DNA of 64,000 bases from Candidatus Saccharimonadota bacterium (lineage in GTDB: Bacteria > Patescibacteriota > Saccharimonadia > CAILAD01 > BJGX01): the NCBI GenBank assembly GCA_016191105.1, contig JACPPH010000008.1, positions 136,951-200,950 on the forward strand, given 5' to 3'. Under the pieces are notes generated by a model that was not told the DNA's origin, made no database searches, and was given only the letters and a program-made list of their open reading frames with translations. Both the position numbers and the translations under genes were made by a program. Below are positions 2,775-62,060 of the stretch, piece after piece. Position 1 is the stretch's first letter. Every line of letters starts with the position of its first letter.

Positions 2775-2833
2775 CTCTTAGTAAAATGATATACAAATTG
2801 TATACCGTTTGTGCTTACGGTGCAACCGAGAAA

Positions 2834-3232
2834 TCAGACTTGTTGGCTTTTGGGCTGAGTAATATTAGCCGGCCGCTCATAACTAGGCACAATAATGTGC
2901 TCAGCCCCGCCATTAGTTAGCTTTTCTACGGCTTGCTTTTGCCAGCCACTGCCCTGGCCGACAACAATTGGAATGCCCAGGCTATATGCCAGAGTGTTTG
3001 CTACAGTCGCGCCAATTCGCAATCCAGTAAAAGATCCGCTACCCGTAAATACCCCGATTCCATCGAGGTCTGCCAGCTTTGTGCCACTATCTTTTAACAG
3101 GGCTTCTATATGTGGTAGAAGCTCGTTGGCTAAGCGACGTTCAGCCAGCCACTTGTCTTTGGCAAACACTTTTTGAATGTCTAATAAATACAGCTCAGCT
3201 TGTGGTTCGTCGCTGCGGATTAGTAAAATCAC
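2834..3232 (-). CDS. tsaB: tRNA threonylcarbamoyladenosine biosynthesis protein TsaB (YeaZ)
   Basis: GVFTGSGSFTGLRIGATVANTLAYSLGIPIV motif of inactive Kae1/YgjD paralogs. Co-located with tsaE. Confidence 0.8.
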   Translation of the reverse strand: MILLIRSDEPQAELYLLDIQKVFAKDKWLAERRLANELLPHIEALLKDSGTKLADLDGIGVFTGSGSFTGLRIGATVANTLAYSLGIPIVVGQGSGWQKQAVEKLTNGGAEHIIVPSYERPANITQPKSQQV

Positions 3233-3717
3233 TTGATGGCCTCTAACAGCCCCCGGCTCTTAGGACCCATTGCGTTTAATGTTAGTTTGCGAGAGTCGTC
3301 GTTTACAAATTCAAACTTAATAACTAGCCGGTCATTGCTCAAGTGTGAGTGAAAATGCTCAGCCCATTCTACACAAACCACCGAGTTGCCGTTTTCGAGT
3401 GAATCGGCTAGCTCGTTTTGCACGAGCTGATCGTCTGTTAGCCTATATAGATCAAAATGTTCCAAGCTACCGCCACTAGGGGTCTTGTAACTTTGGTGGA
3501 TGGTAAAGGTAGGGCTAACAATCGTCTTTTCAACACCAAGAGCCCTGCCCAGGGCTTTTACAAAAGCAGTTTTACCGCCACCCAGATCTCCAACCAGCTC
3601 TATTAGCAAGGGCGGCTTAAGGTTTTGAGCTAGTCTTAACGCCAAGTCCGAACTTTGTTCTAAGTTTGTGGTAAGTATTAATGATTTCTGGCCGGTATTC
3701 ATAAATCCCATATCCAA
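3229..3717 (-). CDS. tsaE: tRNA threonylcarbamoyladenosine biosynthesis ATPase TsaE (YjeE)
   Basis: P-loop GDLGGGKTAFVKALGRALGV, about 150 aa. Start may be the internal Met at about 3702 (MNTGQ). Confidence 0.8.
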   Translation of the reverse strand: MDMGFMNTGQKSLILTTNLEQSSDLALRLAQNLKPPLLIELVGDLGGGKTAFVKALGRALGVEKTIVSPTFTIHQSYKTPSGGSLEHFDLYRLTDDQLVQNELADSLENGNSVVCVEWAEHFHSHLSNDRLVIKFEFVNDDSRKLTLNAMGPKSRGLLEAIK

Positions 3718-4951
3718 TAGTACCGACTCCTAGCACAATCAGCAACCAGGTCCACAGTGTAGAATTCTTACTAATGTTGGCGGCAGCTTCGGTAGCGCTA
3801 TTGGCTATTTTGGCTACCGGGCTCTTAGCAGCCGCCTTGGCCTTACTGGTTTTGGCAGCCGCAACTTTCTTGGCAGTAGTTTTCTTGCTAGCAGCAGCCT
3901 TTGCTGTCGTACTGCCAGCCGAATCTACAAGGGCGGCGGAGTTTACGCCACCGGGTGTTGGGCTAGTTGTCCAAGTCCACTCGCCGTTTACTAGCCCCCA
4001 GCTTAGGCCTTGCTTGGCGTTGCCATAATCTGGTGTAGTATCGCCAATTGATCCATCGGGCGCTAGCAGGCTAATTACATCGCCGGTGTTATTAAGTGTA
4101 ATACTTGTTTCCTTGCTATAAAGTACCAAGTAGCCACCAGCCGCAATCGTTTTGCTCTTGATTACAAACACTTTGCCACTGCCATCGCGCAAGCTCCAGC
4201 CATTTAGATCTACATCTGCTCCAGTCGGATTGTACAGTTCAATAAACTCATCGCTACTGTCAACCTGTGGGCTGGCTGGATCTGGTAATAATTCTGTAAC
4301 TACAATGCGGGCATAATTTGCTGGGCTGGGATCATCGACACCTTGATCTCCAGGATTTGGTGGTTCAACAGCAGGAATTGCGCCTGGTGTAGCAGTGGTG
4401 CTGAGCGAAAAGTCACTCAAGTTGTTATCGCTATTGAGCATGGTTTGAGTGGCATCATCGAAGTCCCTGGCCAGCACCTCGTTGGTAACAGGTGCGGGTG
4501 CGGCCAGACCTAATGGACTATCACCATTACCCCAGGCAAACTGATCAACTGCGCTGTCGTTTGAGTCGCGCAATTGAATGTTACCACCGGTTTGCGCCAA
4601 CCCACTGTTAAACTTAGTGTTGGCAGCAATATCACTGGCTAGTAGCCAGAAGCCATGGGCGGCTATAACCGAGCCTGACGGTAGAGTAGCTTTCTTGCTC
4701 CAGCTGGTGCCGGTGGCTGATTTGTAATACAAGCTCCAGCCTGAAATGTCGATATCGCTATTCGTGTTGTTATAGAGCTCAACAAATTCATCCCCCGATG
4801 AAGTAGGGGAGCCGGGTTGAAGCTCGCTTATTACTACAGGTTTGGCAACAGCCCTTACGGGCGGTGCGCCATTGATTAATATGCCCAGCATGGGTAAAGC
4901 CACGAGCAAACTAATCATGGTCCGATTTAAAACTTTGTGTAACACATTCAT
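3617..4951 (-). CDS. lamin-tail-domain (LTD) repeat surface protein with C-terminal TM anchor
   Basis: Two LTD-like repeats (DEFVELYNNTNSDIDISGWSL / DEFIELYNPTGADVDLNGWSL), a signal peptide, and a C-terminal Lys/Ala-rich stretch plus TM helix. Start is uncertain: ORF-track start 5053 would overlap repeat copy 1, so MNVLHK at 4951 or MISLL at 4918 are more plausible. Confidence 0.55.
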   Translation of the reverse strand: MNVLHKVLNRTMISLLVALPMLGILINGAPPVRAVAKPVVISELQPGSPTSSGDEFVELYNNTNSDIDISGWSLYYKSATGTSWSKKATLPSGSVIAAHGFWLLASDIAANTKFNSGLAQTGGNIQLRDSNDSAVDQFAWGNGDSPLGLAAPAPVTNEVLARDFDDATQTMLNSDNNLSDFSLSTTATPGAIPAVEPPNPGDQGVDDPSPANYARIVVTELLPDPASPQVDSSDEFIELYNPTGADVDLNGWSLRDGSGKVFVIKSKTIAAGGYLVLYSKETSITLNNTGDVISLLAPDGSIGDTTPDYGNAKQGLSWGLVNGEWTWTTSPTPGGVNSAALVDSAGSTTAKAAASKKTTAKKVAAAKTSKAKAAAKSPVAKIANSATEAAANISKNSTLWTWLLIVLGVGTIGYGIYEYRPEIINTYHKLRTKFGLGVKTSSKP

Positions 4952-4989
4952 AAACCCCATTGTATGCAGTCCAAAAACCGAAAGTAAAG

Positions 4990-5275
4990 CGTATGCACAA
5001 TACTTTTTTGAAAAAAGTCTGTTTGCGTCTTTTGCATAATCAAAGAAGCCCAAAAACTAATCCCTCGGCCGTTCGGCCGAAACCGAATCTATGGCTTTAA
5101 GCAGCCGGCACTTCTTTGAAAGCCAAAGAAGCAAAGCTCTTGGCATGGACACAAAACATGAACACACCTTAAGCTCTCGCTTCCAGTTCTGCGGAACTCG
5201 CTAAACGCTCAGACAGTCCTCGAACATGGAGCACTCAAGCTCAGTTAGCTTCCTGTTTGCTTTAATGCCGGAGTA
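4990..5275 (+). repeat. copy 1 of a 3-copy ~400-nt intergenic structured repeat element (5' part diverged)
   Basis: Direct sequence matches to 61830-62052 and inverted to 57648-57870. Shared blocks: tcggccgttcggccga hairpin, ggcatggacRcaaaaca, cgcttccagttctgcggaactc, cagtcctcgaacRtggagcac, gcttcctgtttgctttaatgccggag. Confidence 0.7.
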
Positions 5276-5486
5276 AGCTCAGCAACGGCTGGGAGAGAAG
5301 ATTCCTAGATTGACTTTCAGATACAAAAGGCGTTTAATGGGGTTAGGTATATTACCAACTTTTTACGATTTAGATTTAATTAATCACTAAAGTTTGTGTG
5401 TTCTGGCCAAGGTCGCAGTGTGTGCAGCAACAGTTGACTTTATGCAGATCCGAAGCACACGAACTCTTATGGAAGAGAGGTGAATT

Positions 5487-7004
5487 ATGTTATTGGTTTT
5501 TGTGGCCATTGCCGTAATTGGTGGTGGTGTTTTGGGATACACGGGCCAAACCGTAATTAATAAACGGAAAAACAGCGATGCCGAGGCCAAGGCCAAAAAG
5601 GTTTTAGACGAGGCCAAAGAACAGGCTAAAAAACTCGAACTCGAAGGTAAAGAAAAAGCTCTAAAGATTGCCGACGAGGCCAAGGCCGAAGAACGCGAAC
5701 GCCGCACCAAACTCGATGCGCTCGAAAAGCGGGTGGCTGATCGCGAAAGCTTGCTCGACAGCAAACTCGAACAAATTGAACGCCGATCCGAGGCTTTAAA
5801 TACCGACGAAAAAGAGATCTCAGCCATTAAAGATGAGCTGCGCAGCATTCGTGCTAAACAAGAAAAGAACTTAGAAAAAATTGCCAAGCTCAAAAAAGAC
5901 GATGCACAAAAGAAGCTAATGGAAATGACCGAAAAGGAGCTTAAGGTAGACTTGGCGGCCTATATAGAAAAGCGCAAACGCGATGCGACCGAAAATGCCG
6001 AAGAAGACGCCAAGCAAATTATGACCGAGGCCATGGAGCGCCTGGCTACCGCCACCGCTACTGAGCGGCCTATTACCACCGTGGCTATCCCGAGCGACGA
6101 GCTAAAGGGGCGCATTATTGGTAAAGAAGGTCGTAACATACAAACCCTAGAGCGACTTACAGGAGTTGATGTGATTATCGACGAATCTCCGGGTGTGATT
6201 ATGATATCGGGTTTTGACCCAGTGCGCCGCCAAGTAGCTCGCCGCAGTTTAGAAAAACTAATCGAAGACGGTCGGATTCACCCAGGCCGAATAGAAGAGG
6301 TTGTCGAAAAAGTTCAAAAGGAAGTTGACGACGAAATTAAAAAGGCTGGTGAACAAGCCGCCCGCGATGCCAAGGTTGCCGGTTTACCACCCGAGATTGT
6401 TAAGCTCATGGGTCAGCTTAAGTTCCGTACCAGCTATAGCCAAAACGTGCTTTACCACTCGGTCGAAATGGCTCACCTAGCTGCCATGATTGCCGAAGAG
6501 GTGGGTGCAAATATTCAAGTGAGCCGCACGGCGGCGTTCTTGCACGATCTTGGCAAGGCCGTGAGCCATGAGATCGAGGGTAAGCACCACCACATTACTG
6601 GCGACATGATGCGCAAGGCTGGGTTTGACGAGGCTACCACCCACGCCGCCGAAGCTCACCACGACGACATTGAGGCCACCACGCCCGAGGCACTGATTGT
6701 GCGTGTAGTCGATGCCCTAAGCGCTGGCCGCCCAGGAGCTCGCGGTGACACGCTCGAAAACTATGTTAAACGCATGCAAGATCTCGAAAACGTAGCCAAT
6801 AGCTTTGCTGGCATCGACAAAAGCTATGCCGTTAGTGCCGGCCGCGAGATCCGGGTGTTTGTAACACCCGAAGAGATTGACGACCTAAGTGCCATTAAGC
6901 TGGCTCGCGATGTAGCCACCAAGATTGAGGCAACACTAAAGTATCCTGGCACAATCAAAGTTAATGTAATACGGGAAACCCGTGCACAGGAGTACGCCAA
7001 GTAG
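5487..7004 (+). CDS. rny: ribonuclease Y
   Basis: N-terminal TM helix, long coiled coil, a KH domain (GKEGRNIQTLERLTGVD) and an HD domain (HSVEMAHLAAMIAEEVG...LHDLGK). Good RBS GGAAGAGAGGTG. Confidence 0.9.
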   Translation: MLLVFVAIAVIGGGVLGYTGQTVINKRKNSDAEAKAKKVLDEAKEQAKKLELEGKEKALKIADEAKAEERERRTKLDALEKRVADRESLLDSKLEQIERRSEALNTDEKEISAIKDELRSIRAKQEKNLEKIAKLKKDDAQKKLMEMTEKELKVDLAAYIEKRKRDATENAEEDAKQIMTEAMERLATATATERPITTVAIPSDELKGRIIGKEGRNIQTLERLTGVDVIIDESPGVIMISGFDPVRRQVARRSLEKLIEDGRIHPGRIEEVVEKVQKEVDDEIKKAGEQAARDAKVAGLPPEIVKLMGQLKFRTSYSQNVLYHSVEMAHLAAMIAEEVGANIQVSRTAAFLHDLGKAVSHEIEGKHHHITGDMMRKAGFDEATTHAAEAHHDDIEATTPEALIVRVVDALSAGRPGARGDTLENYVKRMQDLENVANSFAGIDKSYAVSAGREIRVFVTPEEIDDLSAIKLARDVATKIEATLKYPGTIKVNVIRETRAQEYAK

Positions 7005-8029
7005 TGAAGCTTAGCCGGGAAAAACTAACGGAAAAGTTAATAAGCGCTGCAGAAAAATTTGTCTCCAGCGATGAAGCCGCATATCTAGCCGATGAAACAA
7101 TTGAGGCATATTTAAGGAAAGCCCCGAGAACAAACCCTTTAAAGTCCACGATTGACGACCTAGGCGCAACACAAAAGTTTTCGAGCAACAAGATTAAATA
7201 CTCAGTGGACTTGCCTTCATTTGTCGAAATTAACTTTGAGCATCAAGGGCCACTTACTTACTTAAAAAGAGTGCATGATTTACTCGCCGGTAGGTCGGCC
7301 AAGAATGGGCTTGCAATGGCCTCTTTTGTAAACTCACAATCCATGCATACGCTACACACTTGGGTACAGGGGCTAGCTAAGAAAGGAATTTTGGCTATTG
7401 CTGTTTGCAATGGTGGGCCCGGGGCTGTAGTCCCGTTCAACGGTACAAAAGGTCTATTCGGTACGAATCCAATTGCTTACGGCATACCGGGCAAAAGTGG
7501 CGAGATTTTCTGCGTAGATATGGCTACATCCGAAATTCCTTATTTTGAAATCATGAATGCCAATAAGAACAACGAGACTTTAAAAGAAAGAGCAGCCGTA
7601 GATAGCAATGGAGAGTTTACGACCAATGCAAAAGCGGCGCTGGATTTTTCTGAAAGCGAAACAGACCCAACTTCTAATATCGTGCCGATGGGTGGTGGCT
7701 ACAAGGGCTACTACATCGTTTACTTAATGGAGGTTTTAACAAGTGCTCTTATAGGCATGCCATCAAGCCCAGAAATGAGTACCGATTTTGTTCCAGAAGA
7801 ACATGGGGCGGTGCTGCTTGCGTTCAGCCCAAAAGCGATGGGAACAAGTGAGAAGTTTGCACAAAGTATTGAGGCACTATGTGGTGCAATAAAAGACCAG
7901 AAAGCGAAAAAGGGCGAAAAGGTTCTTTATCCAGGAGAGGGAAACAATGAAAAATTCAGCAAACTTTCTGGCGCAGAGATTGAGGTTGATGAAGATTTAA
8001 TAAAGAGACTAGAAAGCCTTACAAAATAG
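7004..8029 (+). CDS. Ldh_2 family (malate/L-lactate/L-sulfolactate dehydrogenase-like) oxidoreductase
   Basis: Motif CNGGPGAVVPFNGTKGLFGTNPIAYGIPGKSGEIFCVDMATSEIPYFEI matches the G-x-G-TNP...D-ATS core of PF02615. Confidence 0.55.
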   Translation: MKLSREKLTEKLISAAEKFVSSDEAAYLADETIEAYLRKAPRTNPLKSTIDDLGATQKFSSNKIKYSVDLPSFVEINFEHQGPLTYLKRVHDLLAGRSAKNGLAMASFVNSQSMHTLHTWVQGLAKKGILAIAVCNGGPGAVVPFNGTKGLFGTNPIAYGIPGKSGEIFCVDMATSEIPYFEIMNANKNNETLKERAAVDSNGEFTTNAKAALDFSESETDPTSNIVPMGGGYKGYYIVYLMEVLTSALIGMPSSPEMSTDFVPEEHGAVLLAFSPKAMGTSEKFAQSIEALCGAIKDQKAKKGEKVLYPGEGNNEKFSKLSGAEIEVDEDLIKRLESLTK

Positions 8030-13395: not shown

Positions 13396-13473
13396 TGGGG
13401 TGAGTGATGGGGCTCGAACCCACGACCTTCGGGACCACAACCCGACGCTCTAACCAGCTGAGCTACACCCACC
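13396..13473 (-). tRNA. tRNA-His (anticodon GTG) with encoded G-1 and CCA
   Basis: Folds as GGTGGGTG-TA-GCTC...GAGC / TCGGG-TTGTGGT-CCCGA / GTGGG-TTCGAGC-CCCAT / CACTCAC-C-CCA, with G-1:C73. Confidence 0.85.
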
Positions 13474-13502
13474 ACGTCCAAATAATGCTTCGATAAGCAT
13501 TG

Positions 13503-13516
13503 CGAATAGTTATTCG
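13503..13516. promoter_or_regulatory. perfect palindrome CGAATAGTTATTCG within a conserved module upstream of the tRNA-His 5' end
   Basis: Same 14-nt palindrome recurs at 13808-13821 upstream of tRNA-Arg(TCT), embedded in about 85 nt of conserved flank with TTGAAT and TATTAT-like boxes. Confidence 0.4.
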
Positions 13517-13595
13517 CAATTTACATTCTCGCATTATTTCTCCTATCGATTCAACAAATAGAAACAATTCTCTTGCTGAATCGACTAGAAAAGCA

Positions 13596-13701
13596 ATGAA
13601 ATTTATTCGATCAAAAGCGGGAACGGTTTTGATCGTGAGGAGAATTGCTATATCAGCTGTAGCAATTTAATAAATACGAAAGCTACAATAGCAATTCGAC
13701 G
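13596..13701 (-). repeat. tRNA 3'-flank repeat module (family B), minus orientation, downstream of tRNA-Arg(TCT)
   Basis: Reverse complement matches 15713-15846 and 15924-16065 (CGTCGAATTRCTATTGTAGCTTTCGTA...GATCAAAAC...GCTTTTGATC). Confidence 0.6.
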
Positions 13702-13778
13702 TGGTACCCCCGGCAGGACTCGAACCTGCGACCTACGGTTTAGAAAACCGTTGCTCTATCCAGCTGAGCTACGGGGGC
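13702..13778 (-). tRNA. tRNA-Arg (anticodon TCT), CCA encoded
   Basis: GCCCCCG-TA-GCTC AGCTGGATA GAGC-A-ACGGT TTTCTAA ACCGT-AGGTC-GCAGG TTCGAGT CCTGC-CGGGGGT-A-CCA. Confidence 0.85.
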
Positions 13779-13807
13779 ACGTTCAAATAATACTCTGATA
13801 TTTGGTA

Positions 13808-13821
13808 CGAATAGTTATTCG
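13808..13821. promoter_or_regulatory. second copy of palindrome CGAATAGTTATTCG upstream of the tRNA-Arg(TCT) 5' end
   Basis: Part of the conserved family-A flank (13779-13870) shared with 13474-13560. Confidence 0.4.
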
Positions 13822-14018
13822 CACCTTATATTCTCGCATTATTTATCTCTGCGATTCAAATTTATTCGACAATTTGAATCGCAGAGTCAGCTGCTGGCTA
13901 CTCTTACCAAAGACAATTAGAATACTTTCAATTGTTTTTGGTAATAGGAAATTTTAGGCATCAGCCAAAGAGAACATAAAAGTCTTTTGTTCTCGAAGGC
14001 TAAAGCCTAAAAATGACG

Positions 14019-14093
14019 TGGAGCGGGTAGCGGGAATCAAACCCGCATCGCCTGCTTGGAAGGCAGGCATAATAATCATTATACGATACCCGC
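14019..14093 (-). tRNA. tRNA-Gly (anticodon TCC), CCA encoded
   Basis: GCGGGTATCGTATAATGATTATTATGCCTGCCTTCCAAGCAGGCGATGCGGGTTTGATTCCCGCTACCCGCTCCA. Anticodon stem CCTGC/GCAGG with loop CTTCCAA. Overall very similar to the canonical bacterial tRNA-Gly(UCC) scaffold, with a D-loop lacking GG. Confidence 0.75.
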
Positions 14094-14316
14094 TTAGAGC
14101 CAAAACGCCATTTTAGATGGTCGTTAAGGCTACTTAATATAAGGTGCCAGGCCGAGGCCCACAAGAACAATATAATACTAGAAAACAAGCCATATTTCAA
14201 GTTGGTGCTAATGCACCTATCCTATCAAAAGTATAGCACGGCCCAATACTCGGTTGCATAAGCTCAACGATTGGTGTTTAATTAACTATATAGTAAAAAC
14301 TACAAGGAGTTATACA

Positions 14317-14775
14317 ATGACAAAATCTGCACTTATTAAAGCTTCGGCTGCGGCAGCAGCGCTAAGTAGCTTGGCGCCGCTGGTCGCTCGAGCCGATGAT
14401 ATTAGCAGCACTACCACCGATACAGCCAGCACCGCGGCCGGTACTGCCGCTGCAGGTGGTATATTGGGTGTTGTTCTAATTTTTTGGATCTTGTTCTTGG
14501 CAATTGCGTTAGGATTTTTTATTTTTTGGGTTGTAATGCTAATTGATGCCTTTAAGCGAACCAACTGGCAAGACGAAGGCCAAAAGAATCTGTGGCTAAT
14601 AATACTGATCGTCTCGATTTTCGTGGGCTTGGCTTGGTTGGCGGCTCTGCTGTACTACTTCATTATCAAGCGAGCTCTCGACAAGGGTGCGGCACCGCAA
14701 GTGGCTGCCCAGGCTAGCCAGCCAACAGCTCCAGCTCAACCGGCCACTCCAGAACAAGACAACCAACAAAAGTAA
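14317..14775 (+). CDS. small secreted/membrane protein (signal peptide, 3 TM helices, Gln/Pro-rich tail)
   Basis: RBS AAGGAG 8 nt upstream of the ATG at 14317. Hairpin plus T-run terminator follows at 14792-14824. Confidence 0.5.
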   Translation: MTKSALIKASAAAAALSSLAPLVARADDISSTTTDTASTAAGTAAAGGILGVVLIFWILFLAIALGFFIFWVVMLIDAFKRTNWQDEGQKNLWLIILIVSIFVGLAWLAALLYYFIIKRALDKGAAPQVAAQASQPTAPAQPATPEQDNQQK

Positions 14776-14791
14776 CAGTTTACAAACCATA

Positions 14792-14824
14792 AAAGCGCCT
14801 GAGTTTAAGCCGGGCGCTTTTTGG
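14792..14824 (+). terminator. Rho-independent terminator
   Basis: aaagcgcctg-agttta-agccgggcgcttttt hairpin followed by a T-run. Confidence 0.5.
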
Positions 14825-14839
14825 TATAATGCGAGAGCA

Positions 14840-15577
14840 ATGAAAATTACTCCAATCAAAACCCGTCCGTTAATTCCGCCTAAAGATGACTTGCTAGCCG
14901 TAATAGCAGAAAGTTTAAAGGAGCTGCCAGAGCAATCAGTTTTGGCCATTGCCTCGAAGGTAGTGGCGATTGATGAGGGTAGATGTATCCCGCTGAGCGA
15001 GATTGAGCACGATGACCTAGTGAAACGAGAGTCTGATAAGTATTTACCGCGTAGCTGTGTGCCTGGAGCCCACATTATACATACTCTGAAGAACAACCTG
15101 CTAATTGGCTCTGCTGGCATAGATGAGAGTAACGCCAACAATTACTTTATACTCTGGCCCGAAGATCCAAAAGCTTCTGCTAAACAGATTTTTGAGTATT
15201 TGAAAAGTGAATTTGGAACTAAGCGATTCGCAGTTTTAATAACTGATTCTCATTCTGTCGCGATGAGGCGAGGCACGGTGGGCATATCGTTGGCGAGCTA
15301 CGGCCTAAAGCCATTAAAGGACTATCGTGGTAAAGAAGATATATTTGGGCGAGAGCTTAAAGCCACAATGACCAATCTTGCTGATGGCTTAGCGGCAGCC
15401 GCCACACTGGTAATGGGAGAGGGCGCAGAAGTCTGCCCATTGGCCTTGATTGAAGATTTAGATGTAGAGTTTATTAGCCAACCCTACAGACCGACAGATC
15501 CTGATGGTAGCTTTGAAATACCACCAGAACAAGATATGTTTAAGCCGTTTTTTGATGGTGTAGACTGGCAAGAATAG
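14840..15577 (+). CDS. CofE-like protein (F420-0:gamma-glutamyl ligase family, PF01996 fold)
   Basis: MKITPIKTRPLIPPKDDLLAVIAESL...LAIASKVVAIDEGRCIPL mirrors the CofE N-terminal motif (I-x-G-LP-x-I-x-GDDL...V-x-SK-x-V-SK-x-EGR). Confidence 0.5.
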   Translation: MKITPIKTRPLIPPKDDLLAVIAESLKELPEQSVLAIASKVVAIDEGRCIPLSEIEHDDLVKRESDKYLPRSCVPGAHIIHTLKNNLLIGSAGIDESNANNYFILWPEDPKASAKQIFEYLKSEFGTKRFAVLITDSHSVAMRRGTVGISLASYGLKPLKDYRGKEDIFGRELKATMTNLADGLAAAATLVMGEGAEVCPLALIEDLDVEFISQPYRPTDPDGSFEIPPEQDMFKPFFDGVDWQE

Positions 15578-15635
15578 CTATCTCCTGGGTGACTTTCATT
15601 GCCATAAGATATATGGTAAAATAACCTGGTTTCTA

Positions 15636-15712
15636 GCGCCCTTAGCTCAGCGGATTAGAGCGACTGGCTTCGGACCAGTAGGTCGGGGGTTCGAATCCCT
15701 CAGGGCGTACCA
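15636..15712 (+). tRNA. tRNA-Arg (anticodon TCG), CCA encoded
   Basis: GCGCCCT-TA-GCTC AGCGGATTA GAGC-G-ACTGG CTTCGGA CCAGT-AGGTC-GGGGG TTCGAAT CCCTC-AGGGCGT-A-CCA. Confidence 0.8.
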
Positions 15713-15846
15713 CGTCGAATTACTATTGTAGCTTTCGTAACTCACAGTTACTTCAGCTGACATATTAATTCTCCTCGCGATCAAAACCATTGCTGCTTTT
15801 GATCGGTTGAAAACAAGCCGATTCAAGTTGTCGAAATTTGAGTTGG
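15713..15846 (+). repeat. tRNA 3'-flank repeat module (family B) between tRNA-Arg(TCG) and tRNA-Lys
   Basis: cgtcgaattactattgtagctttcgtaactcacagttacttcagctgacata...ctcctcgcgatcaaaaccattgctgcttttgatcg. Near-identical to 15924-16065. Confidence 0.6.
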
Positions 15847-15923
15847 GGGCCATTAGCTCAGTTGGTTAGAGCATCTGCCTCTTAAGCAGAGTGTCCTGGG
15901 TTCGAGTCCCAGATGGCCCTCCA
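15847..15923 (+). tRNA. tRNA-Lys (anticodon CTT), CCA encoded
   Basis: GGGCCAT-TA-GCTC AGTTGGTTA GAGC-A-TCTGC CTCTTAA GCAGA-GTGTC-CTGGG TTCGAGT CCCAG-ATGGCCC-T-CCA. Confidence 0.85.
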
Positions 15924-16065
15924 CGTCGAATTACTATTGTAGCTTTCGTAATCCATGATTACTTCAGCTGACATAGCAATTCTCCTTGCGATCAAAACCA
16001 TTCCCGCTTTTGATCGAAAACAAAATAACCGATTCAAATTGTCGAAGAAATTTGAATCGAATAGC
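15924..16065 (+). repeat. tRNA 3'-flank repeat module (family B) between tRNA-Lys and tRNA-Pro
   Basis: Second tandem copy of the CGTCGAATTACTATTGTAGCTTTCGTAA...GATCAAAACC...GCTTTTGATCG module. Confidence 0.6.
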
Positions 16066-16142
16066 CGGGGTGTGGCGCAGTTGGCTAGCGCGCCGCGTTT
16101 GGGACGCGGAGGTCGAAGGTTCGAGTCCTTTCACCCCGACCA
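16066..16142 (+). tRNA. tRNA-Pro (anticodon TGG), C1:G72, CCA encoded
   Basis: CGGGGTG-TG-GCGC AGTTGGCTA GCGC-G-CCGCG TTTGGGA CGCGG-AGGTC-GAAGG TTCGAGT CCTTT-CACCCCG-A-CCA. Confidence 0.8.
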
Positions 16143-17929
16143 GAAGATATTTTTGGTAAATCCGCCAGTAAATTATATGGCGGATTTAGTGTTATTTCAG
16201 ATATAGAGTCGTTTGCGGCTCGTAGGTTCGACACTAGCTCGTTGCAAATAGTATCTTGTTCCACTAAATCGTTTGTGTTGAGCAATGTTTTCAGATAAGA
16301 ATCAATGAGTTCGTAGAAATCTTGCTCGCTTGGTAAGCTAGTGCCTAGTCGCTCCAATTCTTGCTCACTAGTTTTTTTGTTGTGTTTAGCTATATCTACC
16401 AGTTTTTGGTAGTGTTCTAATTTGCCATTGTGATGTTTTTTATAATCTTCTGGGTGGTCAACCTGAAACTGTTGGTAACGCATATAATGCTGTGTATTCG
16501 TTCTAACGTCTTTTTTCGCATTACTTAACTTGCGTTTAGCAATAGCTATCTCCTGTGCATGCTTGCTTTTTAGACGTTCAATGTACAGCTGATATGCTTC
16601 TTTACTATTCTTCGTTAGATGTCGTAAAGTCCACTCAATAGCTGACGAAACATATTTGGCTCTAATACTCTTTTTGAGTTTGATACCTTTCTCTCGGTTT
16701 TCTTCTGCTTTATAACGTTGGCAGTTAGTATTCCTGCAATAAAAACTAATAACCCATCTCCCCTTATTTTTGCCCTTTTTAATAGGCTGATGTTGGAATT
16801 GCATTGGAAGATCGCAGTAATCACAAATAACCTTGCCCCTTAGTAGGCCATAACCTAGCTTTTTGGCGTTTACAGAGTTGCCCACGTGTTTTTCACCGTA
16901 ACTAGCTGCCGTACCCTTGTTAAGGGCAATATACTCGTCAGGCGTCATTAAAGGCAAGAAGTCATAAGTTTCTGCTAAATTGGTCAGGTTGTTACCATAT
17001 CTATATAGCCCAAAATAGAATGGGTCTTCAAATAAATCGCCCACCATTTGTTTATCCACTCGCACTACCTTATAAGGCTCGTCTTGATCTTTACGTTCGC
17101 TAAAGTAGGCAGAGTTTAAGAATTCGGCAACCTCTATATTGCTTTTACCCTCCTGTAATCGCATGATTACACTTTGTCTCAATAAATCCCAGTTATATCC
17201 ATCTGGAATAAAGTATCCTGTACTAGCATCAACATAATAGCCTTTTTTTGTTACGCCGTTATATTTACCTTCTTTAATATTGCCACTAGTACCACGCTTA
17301 ACATCCACAGACAACTTATCAGAATACTGTTTCGAAGTGGCAAATAGTATTCCTAGCATCATTTTGCCATTTGGATTGTTCTCAAATTGGTACGTTCTGA
17401 ACTGTAAATCCTGAATCTGCTCATGGTCTATCATTTCAATGACTTCGCCCGCTTCTTTCATATTCCTTGATATTCTGTCGGGCGACCACGAAATTAGACC
17501 ATGATACTTGCCAGTCTTAAATCCCATAATCATGTCGTCAAATATAGGCCGATTGCCTGAGATCTTGGCAGAAGCTGACTCTTCAAGTATATCTTCTTCT
17601 CGTATTGTAATACCTTGTGCTTCCGCTAGTTCAAGACACTCAGACCGTTGATCTTCTAATGATCTAACTTGTTTTGATTCGTCATCAGTTGATTTACGTA
17701 GATATAGTACATAACACCGCCTTTCTTTTGGGAGTATTCGTTTACTTCCTTCTTGCTCACGAGCAAAATACTCTGTTAACTGCTCAACTGTATGGCTACT
17801 CGCAGGTAAATTAAATACGTCAGGATTACCTTCCTTTTGCTTGGCAAGCCTTTTTTCAATTTCAACTACCTTGTCGCTCGGTAGGTATGCAATCTTGCGT
17901 CTTCGTGCTGGTTTTTTCTGATTAGCCAT
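16085..17929 (-). CDS. large serine recombinase (resolvase/invertase catalytic domain + recombinase domain + zinc ribbon)
   Basis: N-terminal YVLYLRKSTDDESKQVRSLEDQ...ISWSPDRISRN (catalytic Ser/Arg motifs), central recombinase domain, Cys-rich CDYCD...CRNTNC zinc ribbon. The last 19 codons read through the tRNA-Pro(TGG) 3' half on the opposite strand. Confidence 0.85.
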   Translation of the reverse strand: MANQKKPARRRKIAYLPSDKVVEIEKRLAKQKEGNPDVFNLPASSHTVEQLTEYFAREQEGSKRILPKERRCYVLYLRKSTDDESKQVRSLEDQRSECLELAEAQGITIREEDILEESASAKISGNRPIFDDMIMGFKTGKYHGLISWSPDRISRNMKEAGEVIEMIDHEQIQDLQFRTYQFENNPNGKMMLGILFATSKQYSDKLSVDVKRGTSGNIKEGKYNGVTKKGYYVDASTGYFIPDGYNWDLLRQSVIMRLQEGKSNIEVAEFLNSAYFSERKDQDEPYKVVRVDKQMVGDLFEDPFYFGLYRYGNNLTNLAETYDFLPLMTPDEYIALNKGTAASYGEKHVGNSVNAKKLGYGLLRGKVICDYCDLPMQFQHQPIKKGKNKGRWVISFYCRNTNCQRYKAEENREKGIKLKKSIRAKYVSSAIEWTLRHLTKNSKEAYQLYIERLKSKHAQEIAIAKRKLSNAKKDVRTNTQHYMRYQQFQVDHPEDYKKHHNGKLEHYQKLVDIAKHNKKTSEQELERLGTSLPSEQDFYELIDSYLKTLLNTNDLVEQDTICNELVSNLRAANDSISEITLNPPYNLLADLPKISSGRGERTRTFDLRVPNAAR

Positions 17930-18035
17930 TCACACCTCAATAATAGTTATTTTCTCACTAGATTACGAACCTATCAAATCCTAAGTGTGACTTATAGTCC
18001 GTAGACCCATAGTCTACTGCTAATCAAGATAGGGT

Positions 18036-18254
18036 ATGACAAAAACATACCCAGAGGTAGCCGCTCAGTTTGGTCAAAGGCTTAGAAAAATTCGTGAATC
18101 AAAGGGCATCTCACAAGAGAAATTAGCCAATGAATCTGGGCTTGATCGCACATATGTCTCTGGAATTGAAAGAGGCAGACGCAATCCGTCACTTATCAAT
18201 ATCTCAAAACTGGCTAAAGGTTTAAACGTAAAGATCACGGATCTATTTAATTAG
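18036..18254 (+). CDS. XRE-family helix-turn-helix transcriptional regulator
   Basis: LRKIRESKGISQEKLANESGLDRTYVSGIERGRRNPSL canonical HTH_3. Divergent from the recombinase. Confidence 0.8.
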   Translation: MTKTYPEVAAQFGQRLRKIRESKGISQEKLANESGLDRTYVSGIERGRRNPSLINISKLAKGLNVKITDLFN

Positions 18255-18426
18255 TGTATGCTTTTTATTGTGTGAGAAAACTACCCTCTGTGTATCATTT
18301 TATAGCGTCAATTAATTCTTCTAACCTGGCCTAATTTGAAGCTATTGAATCTTTTGTTTAGATATTGCATTATATTTAAGTGTGACTTATAATCTACGCA
18401 AGTTAAAAATTAAATCAGGAGTTACT

Positions 18427-18978: not shown

Positions 18979-19016
18979 TGGTTCAATAGACCAAGATATT
19001 TAATTAGGAAAAACAA

Positions 19017-19655: not shown

Positions 19656-19682
19656 TATAACTGGTCAATTACTGGTAAACAT

Positions 19683-20072: not shown

Positions 20073-20092
20073 AGGTTCTACAAACTTCTGGC

Positions 20093-20619: not shown

Positions 20620-20803
20620 AATTACATTATAGCAAGAATGTAGTTTCTAAGGCTCTACTAGGCTTTACCAGGTTATCAAGCTGTTGTTTTAGATGTTCTA
20701 ATTGATTATTGAGTAACCTATAATTGAGTAGAAGGGTATACAGGGCATCTAAGTTAGGTTCGATTTGAGTATGCATACCCCGACCACGTCATAATACCGC
20801 TTC

Positions 20804-20843: not shown

Positions 20844-20857
20844 TGTGCAGCATTTTT

Positions 20858-57628: not shown

Positions 57629-57647
57629 TACCTGGCGTCCTCCAACA

Positions 57648-58078
57648 TTCGAAAATACATCTAGCTACTTTCTCCGGCATTAAAGCAAACAGGAAGCTAA
57701 GTAAGCTTAAGTGCTCCAAATTTGAGGACTGTTTGAATCCCGGTCTTGACCGAGATGAGTTGCGCAGAACTGGAAGCGAAAGCTCATTAGTGCTCATGTT
57801 TTGTGTCCATGTCGGCAGTTTTATCCAACTTTTACTGCCAAAAGTTGGCCAAGCCATGGAATGGCAAGATTCAGCTTTTGGCCGAATGGCCAACCTTCTT
57901 TTGAAAAGACTAAAAGAAGGCAAAAGTCTTTGGCCTGTGCTGCGATTCAAGCAGCGCGCAACAAGCAAAATACTTTCTGTTTCTGCGCGGTCTGGTAAAA
58001 ACCAGATTCTCAAAAAAAGAGTGCATTTTGCTATTGCACTTGCTGATCTTGCAACGGCCGGGGAAACGATACGTGTCT
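57648..58078 (-). repeat. copy 2 (inverted orientation) of the 3-copy ~400-nt structured repeat element
   Basis: Reverse complement aligns along about 400 nt with 61662-62060, including gatcagcaagtgca, gctgcttgaatcgcagca, ggccattcggcc, ggcatggacacaaaacatg, cgcttccagttctgcg, cagtcctc...ggagcac, and gcttcctgtttgctttaatgccggag. Confidence 0.7.
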
Positions 58079-59838: not shown

Positions 59839-61656
59839 ATGAAAACCGCAGAAATACGGCAGAAATTCTTAGATTTCTTTAAATCTAAAGACCACGCCAT
59901 TATCCCCAGTGCACCGGTGGTGCCCGAGCACGATCCAACGGTGCTGTTTACAACTGCCGGCATGCACCCTTTGGTGCCCTATCTGTTGGGTCAACCACAC
60001 CCGCAAGGCAAGCGCCTGGCTGACAGTCAAAAGGTGGTTCGAACCACCGATATCGATGAAGTTGGTGATTACTCTCACCTAACTTTTTTCGAGATGCTTG
60101 GCAACTGGAGCTTGGGCGACTACTTTAAACAAGACTCAATTACCTGGAGCTGGGAATTTTTGACCGACAAAAAGTGGATGGGTATAGATCCACACAAACT
60201 ATACATAACTGTCTACGAGGGTGATGGTGAGGTGCCGAAAGATGATGAGTCTATCAAGATCTGGCAAGAGCTGTACAAAAAGGTTGGCATCGAAGCCAAA
60301 GAAGGTGAGCGAATCCTTGCTCTGGGACACGACGATAACTGGTGGGGCGGGGTAGAAACAGGCGCAGCCGGCCCAGATACCGAGATCTTCTATTATCTAG
60401 GCAGCGATAAAAATCCCAAGTTCGATACCGAAAGCACCGATTTTGTGGAGATTTGGAATAACGTGTTTATGACTTACCGTGCCAATAAGGATGGTAGCTA
60501 CACTGAATTACCAAACAAAAATGTGGATACCGGCATGGGCTTGGAACGCATGGCTGTAGCCATGCAGGGCGTAGATAATGTTTACGAAACCGACTCTGTG
60601 CACGAAATCCTGGAGACAGTCGAGGCTTATGCTCGCAACGTGCACAAAACCGTTTTTGAGGAAACCTCACCTGAATCATCGCTGCGCGCAGCTCGAATTA
60701 TCACCGATCATAGCCGCACAGTTACTTTTATGTCGGCCGATGGTGTAAGCCCTGGTAACAAAGACCAAGGCTATGTAATGCGCCGGCTGGCTCGCCGCGC
60801 AATTCGCGAAGGCCTGGTATTGGGAATTCAAAGCGACTTATTTAAAAACATAGTGCCAAAAGTGATTGAGATTTATGGCGATGCTTACCCGGAGCTTAAC
60901 GACCGGGAGGCAGAAATTATGAGCACTCTCGAACGCGAAGAAAAAGTATTTCGCTCAACACTAGCTCGTGGCCTTAAAGAGTTTGAGCGCCTATTACGCG
61001 ACAAAAAAGACCTGAATGGCGCAACTGCCTTCACCCTTTACGACACCTATGGATTTCCAAAAGAGCTTAGCCTAGAAGAGGCTAAACGAGTTGGCTTGCC
61101 AGTAGCTCAAGATTTTGAAAACCAATTCGAGATCGAGATGGAAAAGCAACGCGAACGTAGTCGAACCGCCACAGCTGGGCAATTCAAGGGCGGCTTGGCC
61201 GATGATAGTGAGGTTGCCACCAAGTACCACACTGCTACACACCTTATGTACCGCGCTCTGCGTAATGTGCTGGGTGATCATGTGGTGCAACGCGGATCCA
61301 ATATTACGGCTGAGCGTATGCGCTTCGATTTTTCGCATCACGAAAAAATGACTCCAGAGCAGATCAAAGAGGTGGAAGACATGGTGAACGATGTGATCCA
61401 CAAAGACATGCCCATGAGTTTTGAGGAAATGCCGAAAGATACAGCTTTCGAGAAAGGTGCTTTGGGTGCCTTTGGCGAGAAGTACCCCGATGTGGTGAAA
61501 GTTTATACCGTGGGTGATCCAGAGGGGGATTGGTATTCCAAAGAAATTTGTGGTGGCCCGCACGTTAAACACACCGGCGAAATAGGTAAATTTAAGATAA
61601 CCAAAGAAGAGTCGTCGTCAGCGGGCGTGCGCCGCATTAAAGCCGTTATCGAATAG
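59839..61656 (+). CDS. alaS: alanyl-tRNA synthetase (short form: catalytic + tRNA-recognition + editing domains, no C-Ala domain)
   Basis: FLDFFKSKDHAIIPSAPVVP, TTAGMHP (class II motifs), and editing-site HxxxH...CGGxH (HTATHLMYRAL...CGGPHV). Confidence 0.85.
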   Translation: MKTAEIRQKFLDFFKSKDHAIIPSAPVVPEHDPTVLFTTAGMHPLVPYLLGQPHPQGKRLADSQKVVRTTDIDEVGDYSHLTFFEMLGNWSLGDYFKQDSITWSWEFLTDKKWMGIDPHKLYITVYEGDGEVPKDDESIKIWQELYKKVGIEAKEGERILALGHDDNWWGGVETGAAGPDTEIFYYLGSDKNPKFDTESTDFVEIWNNVFMTYRANKDGSYTELPNKNVDTGMGLERMAVAMQGVDNVYETDSVHEILETVEAYARNVHKTVFEETSPESSLRAARIITDHSRTVTFMSADGVSPGNKDQGYVMRRLARRAIREGLVLGIQSDLFKNIVPKVIEIYGDAYPELNDREAEIMSTLEREEKVFRSTLARGLKEFERLLRDKKDLNGATAFTLYDTYGFPKELSLEEAKRVGLPVAQDFENQFEIEMEKQRERSRTATAGQFKGGLADDSEVATKYHTATHLMYRALRNVLGDHVVQRGSNITAERMRFDFSHHEKMTPEQIKEVEDMVNDVIHKDMPMSFEEMPKDTAFEKGALGAFGEKYPDVVKVYTVGDPEGDWYSKEICGGPHVKHTGEIGKFKITKEESSSAGVRRIKAVIE

Positions 61657-61661
61657 TTCCT

Positions 61662-62060
61662 TCCGGCCGTTGCTGTGATCAGCAAGTGCAGTGGCAAAAT
61701 GCGTTCTTGTTGCGAGAATCTTGTCACTACAAGACCGCACAGCAACAGGAAAGTATTTTTGCTATTGCACGCTGCTTGAATCGCAGCATAGGCCAAAACA
61801 CTTTTGCCCTCTTTTGGTGTCTCAAAAGAACGGTCGGCCATTCGGCCGAAAGCTGAATCTTGTACTGTGCATACGGCACTTCTTTGTAGCCAAAGAAGCA
61901 AAGCTTCTGGCATGGACGCAAACAAGGAGCGCCATCTACTCTCCGCTTCCAGTTCTGCGGAACTCGTCCCGACGGTACTGTCGGGACTCAAACAGTCCTC
62001 GAACGTGGAGCACACCAAGCTCTTTGGCTTCCTGTTTGCTTTAATGCCAGAGAAAGCTAT
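61662..62060 (+). repeat. copy 3 of the 3-copy ~400-nt structured repeat element
   Basis: See copies at 4990-5275 and 57648-58078. Begins 6 nt after the alaS stop. Confidence 0.7.

What the first reader, a model, noticed from the sequence alone, without database searches (positions are those of the whole stretch)
4990..5275. Three-copy ~400-nt intergenic element with stem-preserving sequence variation: candidate novel structured ncRNA family
The same roughly 400-nt sequence occurs at 4990-5275 (+; 5' third diverged), 57648-58078 (inverted) and 61662-62060 (+), always between genes and with no credible ORF. Conserved blocks are separated by hairpins whose sequence differs but whose pairing is kept:
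- cttctttgTAGCcaaagaag vs cttctttgAAAGccaaagaag vs ccaacttttggcagtaaaagttgg
- gtcccgacGGTActgtcgggac vs atctcggtcAAgaccgggat
A palindromic tcggccattcggccga hairpin is common to all. Compensatory change of this kind argues for selection on RNA structure rather than a decaying MITE, and no terminal inverted repeats are evident. I cannot match it from memory to OLE, GOLLD, ROOL, raiA or HEARO.
Basis: seen in the sequence. Interest (0 to 1): 0.8.

Follow-up and report, generated by a model that had tools for sequence, protein, structure and literature searches.

The report
Structured palindromic repeat family in Saccharibacteria
The three copies are real members of an undescribed, non-coding repeat family found only in a few related Saccharibacteria; its roughly 200-base unit keeps a conserved hairpin fold and has inserted between housekeeping genes, so it behaves like a small mobile element, and whether the fold acts as RNA or single-stranded DNA is unresolved.

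Summary

**What is there**
- The window (Candidatus Saccharibacteria MAG) holds three strong copies of a ~190-nt core (149-168 bits with my covariance model).
- With its upstream P-1 hairpin the unit is ~215-230 nt: two small hairpins (P-1, P0) and a ~130-140-nt irregular rod (P1-P6) with conserved asymmetric internal loops.
- The "400-nt element" at 57.6 kb and 61.7 kb is a head-to-head doublet. Its 5' half is a diverged unit on the opposite strand.

**Support for the fold**
- Eleven more units, counted by distinct locus, came from Saccharibacteria contigs elsewhere.
- Across 12 aligned units, 90% of cells pair and 24 of 36 pairs show double changes. That is 88 compensatory cells against 26±4 in shuffles and 10-15 in slid controls.
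- No Rfam family matches, even at E≤10. There is no conserved ORF.

**Evidence of mobility**
- Every syntenic relative fetched has empty sites for copies 2 and 3.
- Copy 1 sits on the junction of a lineage-specific 2.2-kb inversion.
- Units nearly always occur as inverted doublets, sometimes followed by fragments of other units.

**What is missing**
- No promoter or terminator pattern and no preferred gene context.
- The strand could not be decided.
- No transposase is present in the window.

**Best reading (0.45):** a REPIN/BIME-like, non-autonomous structured repeat copied in trans. A genuine multi-copy ncRNA remains a live rival (0.3).

The parts
5016..5309 (+). Copy 1 block: sequence with no counterpart in relative L025, lying exactly at the right junction of a 2.2-kb inversion (tsaB-tsaE-LTD block).
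   Evidence: blastn of the window against L025: 2848-5015 aligns inverted, 5310-7006 aligns collinear, and nothing aligns in between.
5065..5080 (.). P-1 palindromic hairpin of copy 1 (TCGGCCGTTCGGCCGA).
   Evidence: Regex location; flagged as a terminator-like hairpin on the minus strand.
5095..5279 (+). Unit A of copy 1. P0 hairpin at 5111-5131; rod from P1 5' strand (GGCATGGAC at 5142-5150) to P1 3' strand (GCTTTAATGCCG at 5259-5270). It lacks the P6 tip hairpin.
   Evidence: cmsearch 167.8 bits, E=3e-41; P0 fold; motif positions.
5280..5309 (+). Tail of copy 1. CAGCAACGGCTGGGAGAGAAG resembles the 3' end of a B-type unit in direct orientation, so it may be a fragment of another unit.
   Evidence: Read by eye against the B units of copies 2 and 3. 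Inference only.
57629..58072 (-). Copy 2: a 444-nt insertion between the DUF218 stop codon and the mnmA start codon. In relatives these two genes overlap (ATGA) or lie at most 12 nt apart.
   Evidence: Empty site at L002 8192-8195. The site is also empty in L003-L007 and L017-L024.
57666..57861 (-). Unit A of copy 2. P0 lies within 57823-57850; the rod ends at GCTTTAATGCCG (57675-57686); the P6 tip is ATCTCGGTC/GACCGGGAT.
   Evidence: cmsearch 149.3 bits.
57878..57893 (.). P-1 palindrome at the head-to-head junction of copy 2.
57884..58069 (+).
   Evidence: cmsearch 31.7 bits, E~1e-6. The antisense of the true window units scores below the E≤5 cut-off. 32 of 36 model pairs are kept.
57629..57665 (-). 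Extra 37-nt tail of copy 2. TCGAATGTTGGAGGACGCC resembles the P4 3' region of a unit, so it may be a fragment.
   Evidence: Read by eye. Inference only.
61657..62056 (+). Copy 3: an exact 400-nt insertion between the alaS stop codon (TAG) and the stop codon (CTA on the plus strand) of a convergent 61-aa gene. In relative L002 the two stop codons are adjacent. No target-site duplication.
   Evidence: L002 11822-11827 against the window.
61655..61842 (-). Unit B of copy 3: a diverged, inverted unit.
   Evidence: cmsearch 21.4 bits, E=4e-4; nhmmer E=8.8e-8.
61834..61849 (.). P-1 palindrome at the head-to-head junction of copy 3.
61863..62058 (+). Unit A of copy 3. P0 at 61879-61898; rod from GGCATGGAC (61909-61917) to GCTTTAATGCCA (62038-62049); the P6 tip is GTCCCGAC/GTCGGGAC.
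   Evidence: cmsearch 163.7 bits.

Best explanation
This is a lineage-restricted family of non-coding, mobile, structured palindromic repeats.

**Shown**
- The basic unit is a ~190-nt core, ~215-230 nt with the upstream P-1 hairpin. It consists of two small hairpins (P-1; P0 with core YTTTTG/CAAAAR) and a ~130-140-nt irregular rod (P1-P6).
- The rod has conserved asymmetric loops: GGACAC opposite GCTTTA, and UGCGGAACUC opposite CAAACAGUCCUC.
- Units sit in intergenic DNA of a few related soil and groundwater Saccharibacteria, almost always as inverted doublets, either head-to-head or tail-to-tail.
- The two 400-nt copies in the window are head-to-head doublets of a canonical A unit and a diverged B unit, and the doublet has been copied as one piece to two sites.

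**Inferred**
- The unit is copied by a factor encoded elsewhere in the genome that recognises it as a folded single strand, either ssDNA or a transcript. This is the logic of REPINs and their RAYT enzymes.
- Lineages of the element therefore keep the fold while their stem sequences drift and compensate.
- New units tend to land next to or inside resident units. That would give doublets, abutting tails and left-over 3' fragments, and the copies also mark a rearrangement breakpoint.
For: **Real repeat family with a conserved fold**
- Nine units score 131-175 bits, and there are five weaker ones.
- RNAalifold predicts 36 pairs, 19 of them with compensatory change.
- On a structure-blind MAFFT alignment 89% of cells pair, and 53 cells have double changes against 20±3.4 in shuffles and ≤17 in slid controls.
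- On 12 units 90% of cells pair, with 88 such cells against 26±4 and 10-15.
- P0 folds in 13 of 14 units, with covarying outer pairs.

**Insertion and turnover**
- The sites of copies 2 and 3 are empty in L002-L007 and L017-L024.
- Copy 1 lies on an inversion junction.
- Two species whose flanking genes are 89-92% identical carry a tail-to-tail pair at the same CDP-OH-transferase/ftsA spacer. The spacer edges are 96-100% identical, yet the pairs do not align by blastn. One unit there is A-type in one species and B-type plus an A-type 3' fragment in the other.

**Doublets**
- Head-to-head: copies 2 and 3, L008, and L011 (by eye).
- Tail-to-tail: L009, L017/L020 and L012, with the tails abutting at a palindromic centre.

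**No sign of a gene**
- No promoter or terminator pattern.
- Both orientations occur, next to gene starts and gene ends alike.
- No conserved ORF.
- No clear strand bias.

**Precedent**
- REPINs are inverted doublets that form ssDNA or mRNA hairpins, and compensatory changes in them are common (PMC3116915).
Against: - No candidate mobilising enzyme was found. No Y1/RAYT, TnpB, IS110 or DDE transposase occurs among 61 of the 63 window ORFs of at least 90 aa or among the ORFs tested next to other copies. The two unscanned ORFs, 57625-58080 and 61691-62044, lie inside copies 2 and 3 and are the non-coding ORFs. Only 64 kb of the genome and a few 8-20-kb loci could be inspected.
- Copy 3 has no target-site duplication, and the ends are imprecise: copy 2 carries about 6 and 37 extra nt.
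- Copies within one genome are about 24% diverged, far more than in active MITE families.
- The unit is five times longer than a REP, and its conserved parts are asymmetric loops rather than two identical inverted arms.
- The fold persists in copies that appear orthologous between species, which would also fit a host function.
- Transposition was not observed. It is inferred from presence and absence between species.
Confidence: 0.45

Rival explanations
1. A genuine multi-copy structured non-coding RNA, acting in trans or sequestering a protein. Its genes have duplicated and moved, and the fold is kept by selection on RNA function in the host.
For: - Covariation is strong.
- The loop sequences are conserved, asymmetric and shared by different organisms.
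- The fold is kept in diverged units outside the training set: 83-89% of model pairs.
- The fold is also kept in a pair held at the same spacer in two species with about 90% flank identity, including compensated P1 changes (GGCAC/GUGCC against GGCUC/GAGCC).
- It is not in Rfam.
Against: - No promoter or terminator pattern.
- Head-to-head units are about 20 nt apart, which leaves no room for divergent promoters.
- The strand is undecided. The antisense minimum free energy is lower in 12 of 13 units, alifold energies are about equal, and the strand-neutral count is 42 G·U against 34 A·C.
- Sites are polymorphic between close relatives.
- Truncated fragments and nested pieces are present.
Confidence: 0.3
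2. A cis-acting transcript element carried by a repeat, acting like REP/BIME as a bidirectional terminator or a 3'-end stabiliser of neighbouring mRNAs. The inverted doublet would guarantee one correctly oriented hairpin for either direction of transcription.
For: - Copy 3 lies between convergent genes, and copy 2 lies just after a gene end.
- In all three window copies the GC-rich P-1 hairpin is followed by a T-rich run on the strand antisense to unit A, and the scanner flags it as terminator-like.
- Both strands of the doublet fold very stably, with z-scores of -8.5 and -6.8.
Against: - Copy 1 and the L009/L017 pairs lie between divergent gene starts, where no 3' end needs protecting.
- The T-rich run after P-1 is not seen in L008 or L010 (read by eye).
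- Relatives manage without the element at the same sites.
- Conserved asymmetric loops are not needed for a terminator.
Confidence: 0.08
3. Functionless palindromic DNA whose arms stay complementary through a mutational process, either template-switch "quasipalindrome correction" or arm-to-arm gene conversion, with no selection on any folded molecule.
For: - Stems P0 and P6 are nearly perfect while their sequences differ completely between copies.
- The fold is about equally good on both strands.
- A unit that has lost the conserved loop motifs (the first L017 unit) still keeps rod pairing.
Against: - Correction should erase mismatches. Instead the same asymmetric internal loops and bulges recur in different organisms: GGACAC against GCUUUA, an invariant U·G, and a near-invariant A·C.
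- It does not explain spread to new sites.
Confidence: 0.07
4. A diverged member of a known RNA class linked to mobile elements: a TnpB or IscB omega RNA (HEARO, IS605-orfB), an IS110 bridge RNA, a retron msr-msd RNA, or 6S RNA.
For: - The size is right, at about 200 nt.
- The layout of two small hairpins followed by a long rod recalls a retron msr-msd RNA.
- The variable sequence just after the conserved 3' end recalls a guide segment.
- The rod shape recalls 6S RNA.
- All of these are resemblances from my own knowledge, not tests.
Against: - No Rfam hit at E≤10 for the window copies, and none at gathering score for seven related loci.
- No reverse transcriptase, TnpB, IscB or IS110 gene lies next to any of the copies inspected.
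- In bridge RNAs the loops are the variable, programmable part; here the loops are conserved and the stems vary.
- 6S RNA is not inserted polymorphically or found as inverted doublets.
Confidence: 0.03

Closest known systems
REPINs / BIMEs (REP doublets mobilised by RAYT tyrosine transposases)
   Same: - Non-coding and extragenic.
- The replicating entity is an inverted doublet.
- They form hairpins in ssDNA or mRNA.
- Compensatory changes across the hairpin are common (PMC3116915).
- They persist and are inherited vertically in a lineage.
- Two unit types occur in head-to-head and tail-to-tail arrangements, as in BIMEs (the BIME comparison is from my own knowledge).
   Different: - The unit is 190-230 nt and is itself a three-hairpin structure, whereas a REP is 20-40 nt.
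- The conserved parts are asymmetric internal loops, not two identical inverted REP cores.
- Few copies were seen: three loci in 64 kb.
- No RAYT gene was found in the DNA inspected.
- The host is a CPR bacterium, not a proteobacterium.
Bacterial MITE-like repeats that fold as RNA hairpins (ERIC, Correia/NEMIS, RUP, BOX); comparison from my own knowledge
   Same: - Small, non-coding, intergenic, multi-copy.
- Present or absent between relatives.
- Able to fold into long stem-loops when transcribed.
- Modular, with different modules joined.
   Different: - No target-site duplication at the one site with exact limits (copy 3).
- Only about 10 nt of imperfect terminal inverted repeat.
- Copies are highly diverged, yet they carry extensive compensated stems and conserved loops.
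Transposon-associated structured RNAs (HEARO/IscB omega RNA, IS605-orfB/TnpB omega RNA, IS110 bridge RNA)
   Same: A structured RNA-like module of about 150-300 nt that travels with mobile DNA, with a conserved end next to variable flanking sequence.
   Different: - No Rfam match.
- No associated nuclease or recombinase ORF next to any copy.
- The fold is a simple rod preceded by two hairpins.
Retron msr-msd non-coding RNA
   Same: Short hairpins followed by a long hairpin that varies in sequence but keeps its structure; total length about 200 nt (from my own knowledge).
   Different: - No reverse transcriptase gene downstream of any copy.
- Multi-copy and arranged in inverted doublets.

Membership tests
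Any Rfam 15 family (OLE, GOLLD, ROOL, raiA, HEARO, 6S, IS605-orfB-I/II, group II intron and others) | Match to the family covariance model at or near its gathering score. | tested here: not met
   - No hit over the copies at gathering score.
- At E≤10, nothing overlaps copies 2 and 3, and only four noise hits of 11-16 bits to unrelated families fall in or beside the copy 1 region.
- No hit at gathering score in seven related loci.
Structured non-coding RNA gene (generic) | Conserved secondary structure supported by covariation. | tested here: met
   - 24 of 36 pairs have double changes.
- 88 compensatory cells, against 26±4 in shuffles and 10-15 in slid controls.
- 90% of cells pair.
- The same result holds on a structure-blind alignment.
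Structured non-coding RNA gene (generic) | A defined transcription unit: its own promoter and terminator, or a detected transcript, on a defined strand. | tested here: inconclusive
   - No consistent sigma-70-type promoter or intrinsic terminator.
- The strand tests conflict.
- No expression data were available.
Structured non-coding RNA gene (generic) | Conserved genomic position or context across species. | tested here: inconclusive
   - The sites of copies 2 and 3 are empty in all relatives fetched.
- One pair is held at the same CDP-OH-transferase/ftsA spacer in two species.
MITE | Terminal inverted repeats. | tested here: inconclusive
   - The doublets are inverted pairs of homologous units.
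- The terminal 10 nt match 9/10 in copy 2 and about 7/10 in copy 3. Beyond that only 10-11 of 30 match without gaps.
- Single units have no terminal inverted repeat.
MITE | Target-site duplication flanking the insertion. | tested here: not met
   Copy 3 lies exactly between two stop codons that are adjacent in L002, with no duplicated bases beyond an ambiguous AG.
MITE | Presence/absence polymorphism between related genomes. | tested here: met
   Empty sites in L002-L007 and L017-L024; L025 and L027 lack copy 1.
REPIN / REP-RAYT system | Short (20-40 nt) REP core with a conserved tetranucleotide and a small palindrome. | tested here: not met
   The unit is 190-230 nt with three hairpins.
REPIN / REP-RAYT system | Units organised mainly as inverted doublets that form hairpins. 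| tested here: met
   - Confirmed doublets: copies 2 and 3, L008, L009, L012 and L017/L020.
- L011 and L010 show partner remnants by eye.
REPIN / REP-RAYT system | A single-copy RAYT (Y1 transposase) gene in the same genome, flanked by the repeats. | not testable with these tools
   None occurs among the window ORFs or the neighbours tested. The rest of each genome could not be scanned.
TnpB/IscB omega RNA or IS110 bridge RNA | Adjacent or overlapping nuclease or recombinase gene, at least in autonomous copies. | tested here: not met
   No such ORF lies next to any of the copies inspected. Autonomous copies elsewhere in the genomes cannot be excluded.
Retron | Reverse transcriptase gene immediately downstream of the msd region. 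| tested here: not met
   The downstream genes are rny, a DUF218 gene and a 61-aa membrane-protein gene, and housekeeping genes in the other loci.

The most novel reading that the evidence does not exclude
The units are a new class of structured RNA (or folded ssDNA) specific to candidate-phyla-radiation bacteria. They would be under purifying selection where they sit, and would either serve the host as a multi-copy trans-acting RNA or act as the nucleic-acid component (guide or recognition module) of an unrecognised mobility system encoded elsewhere in these tiny genomes.
Probability: 0.2. Interest if true: 0.8.

Novelty: new variant of a known kind. Interest (0 to 1): 0.55.

Why it matters
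- Saccharibacteria and other CPR bacteria have genomes of about 1 Mb with almost no spare DNA, and I found no description of repeat families or MITE-like elements for them in the searchable literature.
- A 200-nt module that keeps an elaborate fold through wholesale sequence turnover, spreads between essential genes and marks an inversion breakpoint is either a new structured RNA or a new kind of hairpin-dependent mobile element.
- Either way it gives a handle on genome plasticity in organisms that are hard to culture.
- It also explains why short-read assemblies of these genomes break at these loci.
- The covariance model built here can be used directly to map the family.

Tried and rejected
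- **Rfam.** No family covers the element, either at gathering score or at E≤10.
- **First collection scans.** The exact 22-mer found nothing in GTDB species genomes or JGI metagenomes. A degenerate two-block pattern then found five loci, all from Saccharibacteria or unlabelled metagenome contigs.
- **Viral contigs.** The four pattern hits are chance. The best one lies in phage coding sequence.
- **Spurious-ORF search.** Searching the ORF across copy 2 against 5.8 billion proteins found only the window's own annotated hypothetical protein HYX70_04930.
- **Coding potential.** Rejected. The ATG in GGCATGGAC is followed by stops after 4-19 codons in several copies (by eye) and is missing in L009b. 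ORF translations share only short patches.
- **Strand assignment.** Wobble counts, minimum free energies, z-scores and alifold energies conflict, so the strand is left open.
- **Promoter and terminator scans.** No consistent signal.
- **Transposase search.** Pfam scans of the window ORFs and of neighbours of other copies found only an unrelated large serine recombinase at 16085-17929.
- **Possible unit fragment at the start of contig L026**, upstream of rny in the closest relative. It looked similar by eye but is not supported by blastn, nhmmer or cmsearch, so I do not count it.
- **GC-rich inserts near the L005 and L010 copies.** They are unrelated to each other and to the element.

Full report
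**Observation**

The three copies are real.
- Reading the sequence, the repeat finder and a three-way alignment show a shared sequence at about 5060-5280 (+), 57629-58072 (-) and 61657-62056 (+).
- A 22-mer from it occurs three times in the window against 0.00 expected.
- No ORF is conserved. Translations of the overlapping ORFs share only short patches interrupted by frameshifts.
- The flanking genes are housekeeping genes: LTD protein and rny; DUF218 and mnmA; alaS and a 61-aa membrane protein.
- The organism is a Candidatus Saccharibacteria MAG. Its AlaRS is 100% identical to an NCBI protein on a 203-kb contig.

**Anatomy**

More units from other organisms (see the next section) let me define a ~190-nt core, which is ~215-230 nt with the upstream P-1 hairpin. 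Its parts are:
- A small hairpin P-1. In the window this is the palindrome TCGGCCRTTCGGCCGA.
- A hairpin P0 with a conserved inner stem YTTTTG/CAAAAR and covarying outer pairs.
- A ~130-140-nt irregular rod with these features:
  - P1 is GGCAU/AUGCC.
  - A conserved asymmetric loop has GGACAC opposite GCUUUA.
  - Stems P2-P4 differ completely in sequence between organisms.
  - A conserved region has UGCGGAACUC opposite CAAACAGUCCUC.
  - The tip hairpin P6 is optional.

A covariance model built from nine units finds exactly three strong units in the window, at 149-168 bits. It also finds two weaker hits, at 57884-58069 (+, 31.7 bits) and 61655-61842 (-, 21.4 bits).
- The antisense of the genuine window units scores below the E≤5 cut-off, so these are not simple mirror-image matches.
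- Clear head-to-head and tail-to-tail pairs exist elsewhere: L008 at 163.8 and 70.4 bits; L009; L012; L017.
- The 400-nt element is therefore a head-to-head doublet of a canonical unit (A) and a diverged unit (B) that share the central palindrome.
- Copy 1 is a single A unit with extra sequence on both sides.

**Family and covariation**

An exact 22-mer found nothing in the GTDB species genomes or the JGI metagenomes. A degenerate two-block pattern recovered five loci, with no obvious chance hits. The three from genome contigs are titled Saccharibacteria, and the two metagenome contigs carry no label. Fetching syntenic loci added another pair, L017/L020.

Support for the fold:
- RNAalifold on nine units predicts 36 pairs, 19 of them with compensatory change.
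- On that structure-blind MAFFT alignment, 89% of cells pair. Fifty-three cells have changes on both sides, against 20±3.4 in shuffles and ≤17 when partners are slid.
- On 12 units aligned to the model the figures are 90% paired, 24 of 36 pairs, and 88 cells against 26±4 and 10-15.
- Units that were not used to build the model keep 83-89% of the pairs.
- P1 itself covaries: GGCAU/AUGCC, GGCAC/GUGCC, GGCUC/GAGCC, CCGGCUA/UAGCCGG.

Selection on pairing is well supported. The family appears narrow and rare in public data.

**Mobility**

Copies 2 and 3:
- In the closest relative (L002, AlaRS 88% identical), DUF218 and mnmA overlap (ATGA), and the alaS stop codon directly abuts the stop codon of the convergent 61-aa gene.
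- Copies 2 and 3 are therefore insertions of 444 nt and exactly 400 nt.
- Both sites are also empty in L003-L007 and L017-L024.
- Copy 3 has no target-site duplication.
- Copy 2 carries about 6 and 37 extra nt at its two ends, so the ends are not precise.

Copy 1:
- It lies exactly on the right junction of an inversion of the tsaB-tsaE-LTD block, relative to L025 and L027.
- Window 2848-5015 aligns inverted to L025, 5310-7006 aligns collinear, and 5016-5309 has no counterpart.

Turnover at one spacer:
- Two species whose flanking genes are 89-92% identical both hold a tail-to-tail pair in the CDP-alcohol-phosphatidyltransferase/ftsA spacer.
- The spacer edges are 96-100% identical, yet the pairs are too diverged for blastn.
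- One position holds an A-type unit in one species. In the other it holds a B-type unit followed by an A-type 3' fragment.
- By eye, similar left-over 3' fragments follow copy 1 and copy 2.

Other observations:
- Tail-to-tail units abut at a palindromic centre: TGAAAA|TTTTCA in L012 and TTAAGGA|TCTTAA in L009.
- Several short-read contigs end inside units (L001, L003, L018, L020), as expected for repeats.

**What it is not, and what stays open**

- No Rfam family matches at gathering score or at E≤10.
- There is no consistent promoter or terminator. The P-1 hairpin followed by a T-rich run looks terminator-like on the strand antisense to unit A in the three window copies, but by eye not in L008 or L010.
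- No transposase, reverse transcriptase or RNA-guided nuclease is encoded in the window or beside the other copies. Only a small part of each genome was visible.
- The strand cannot be called:
  - The model's orientation holds an invariant U·G pair, but it also holds a near-invariant A·C.
  - Strand-neutral counts are 42 G·U against 34 A·C.
  - Alifold energies are similar or slightly favour the antisense.
  - The antisense minimum free energy is lower in 12 of 13 units, partly because that strand is richer in G+U. Z-scores favour it in only 10 of 15.
  - Both strands of the copy 3 doublet fold far better than shuffles, with z-scores of -8.5 and -6.8.

**Interpretation**

The best-supported reading is a non-autonomous, structured palindromic repeat. 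Its unit, or its doublet, would be copied in trans by a factor that recognises a folded single strand. That would explain why the fold and the loops are kept while the stems turn over.

The closest precedent is the REPIN/RAYT system. There the replicating entity is an inverted doublet that forms an ssDNA or mRNA hairpin, and compensatory changes are common (PMC3116915).

This family still fails REP membership on three counts:
- The unit is five times longer than a REP.
- The unit is itself a three-hairpin structure with asymmetric conserved loops.
- No RAYT gene is known for it.

It also fails the MITE criterion of a target-site duplication.

A true multi-copy ncRNA remains a serious rival. 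It is favoured by the conserved loops and by retention of the fold in copies held at the same site in two species. Cis-acting terminator or stabiliser roles, purely mutational maintenance of palindromes, and membership of a known transposon-RNA class are less likely, for the reasons given under the rival explanations.

**Novelty**

Literature searches returned nothing on repeat families, MITEs or such structured motifs in Saccharibacteria or CPR bacteria. I rate it a new variant of a known kind, the hairpin-forming bacterial repeat. There is a modest chance that it is something more unusual.

**Limits**

- Only 14 distinct units from about six organisms were available.
- Alignments fitted to the model lean towards the model's structure.
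- No expression data and no complete genomes could be examined.
- The resemblance of the tail fragments to parts of other units rests on inspection by eye.

Noticed in passing
window 44780-45270 (+): A ~480-nt GC-rich non-coding stretch lies between ORF 44273-44749 and a UvrD/PcrA-type helicase gene, and ends in a terminator-like GGGCTTTTTTATT. It embeds a 100-nt segment (44946-45045) that matches bacterial 23S rRNA positions 1071-1170, the L11/L10-binding GTPase-associated centre, at 82 bits. Nothing else in the stretch matches Rfam. It is not part of an rRNA operon. It may be a large structured RNA with an rRNA-mimic domain, and it could be more interesting than the assigned finding.
   Followed up: partly
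window 2817-5015: The tsaB-tsaE-LTD gene block is inverted relative to two relatives, L025 and L027. The right junction carries copy 1 of the repeat, and the left junction (2817-2847) is clean.
   Followed up: yes
window 16066-21490: A probable integrated element. A 614-aa large serine recombinase (16085-17929, minus strand) abuts a tRNA gene. Two 83%-identical tRNA genes (16066-16142 and 21414-21490) bracket about 5.3 kb of low-GC DNA (39-41%) that holds ORFs with no Pfam match.
   Followed up: partly
window 13399-16139: A cluster of six tRNA genes on both strands, with repeated spacers and inverted repeats between them (D2, D5, D8, I1, I6 and I9).
   Followed up: no
window 22377-24227 and 24516-26441: Two adjacent paralogous genes of 616 and 641 aa. 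The second has a beta-helix domain. Segments at the 5' end of the coding sequences are 91-98% identical (22440-22644/24630-24834 and 22697-22780/24920-25003), which suggests a recent duplication or gene conversion.
   Followed up: no
L010 about 1270-1900: A stretch of roughly 600-700 nt that looks very GC-rich by eye and is densely self-complementary lies about 130 nt downstream of the L010 unit, in a genome that is otherwise about 45% GC. Its ORFs have no Pfam match and it has no Rfam match. It is unexplained.
   Followed up: partly
L005 12020-12620 (also L006): GC-rich foreign-looking DNA lies in the ~800-nt gap between alaS and the CDP-OH-transferase gene. It encodes a small protein containing a CQFCGK motif on the minus strand. 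It is unrelated to the repeat family and to the L010 stretch.
   Followed up: partly
L001, L003, L018 and L020 contig ends: Short-read (Logan) contigs from several samples end inside units of the repeat family. This is consistent with assembly breaks at repeats, or with poor sequencing through hairpins.
   Followed up: no
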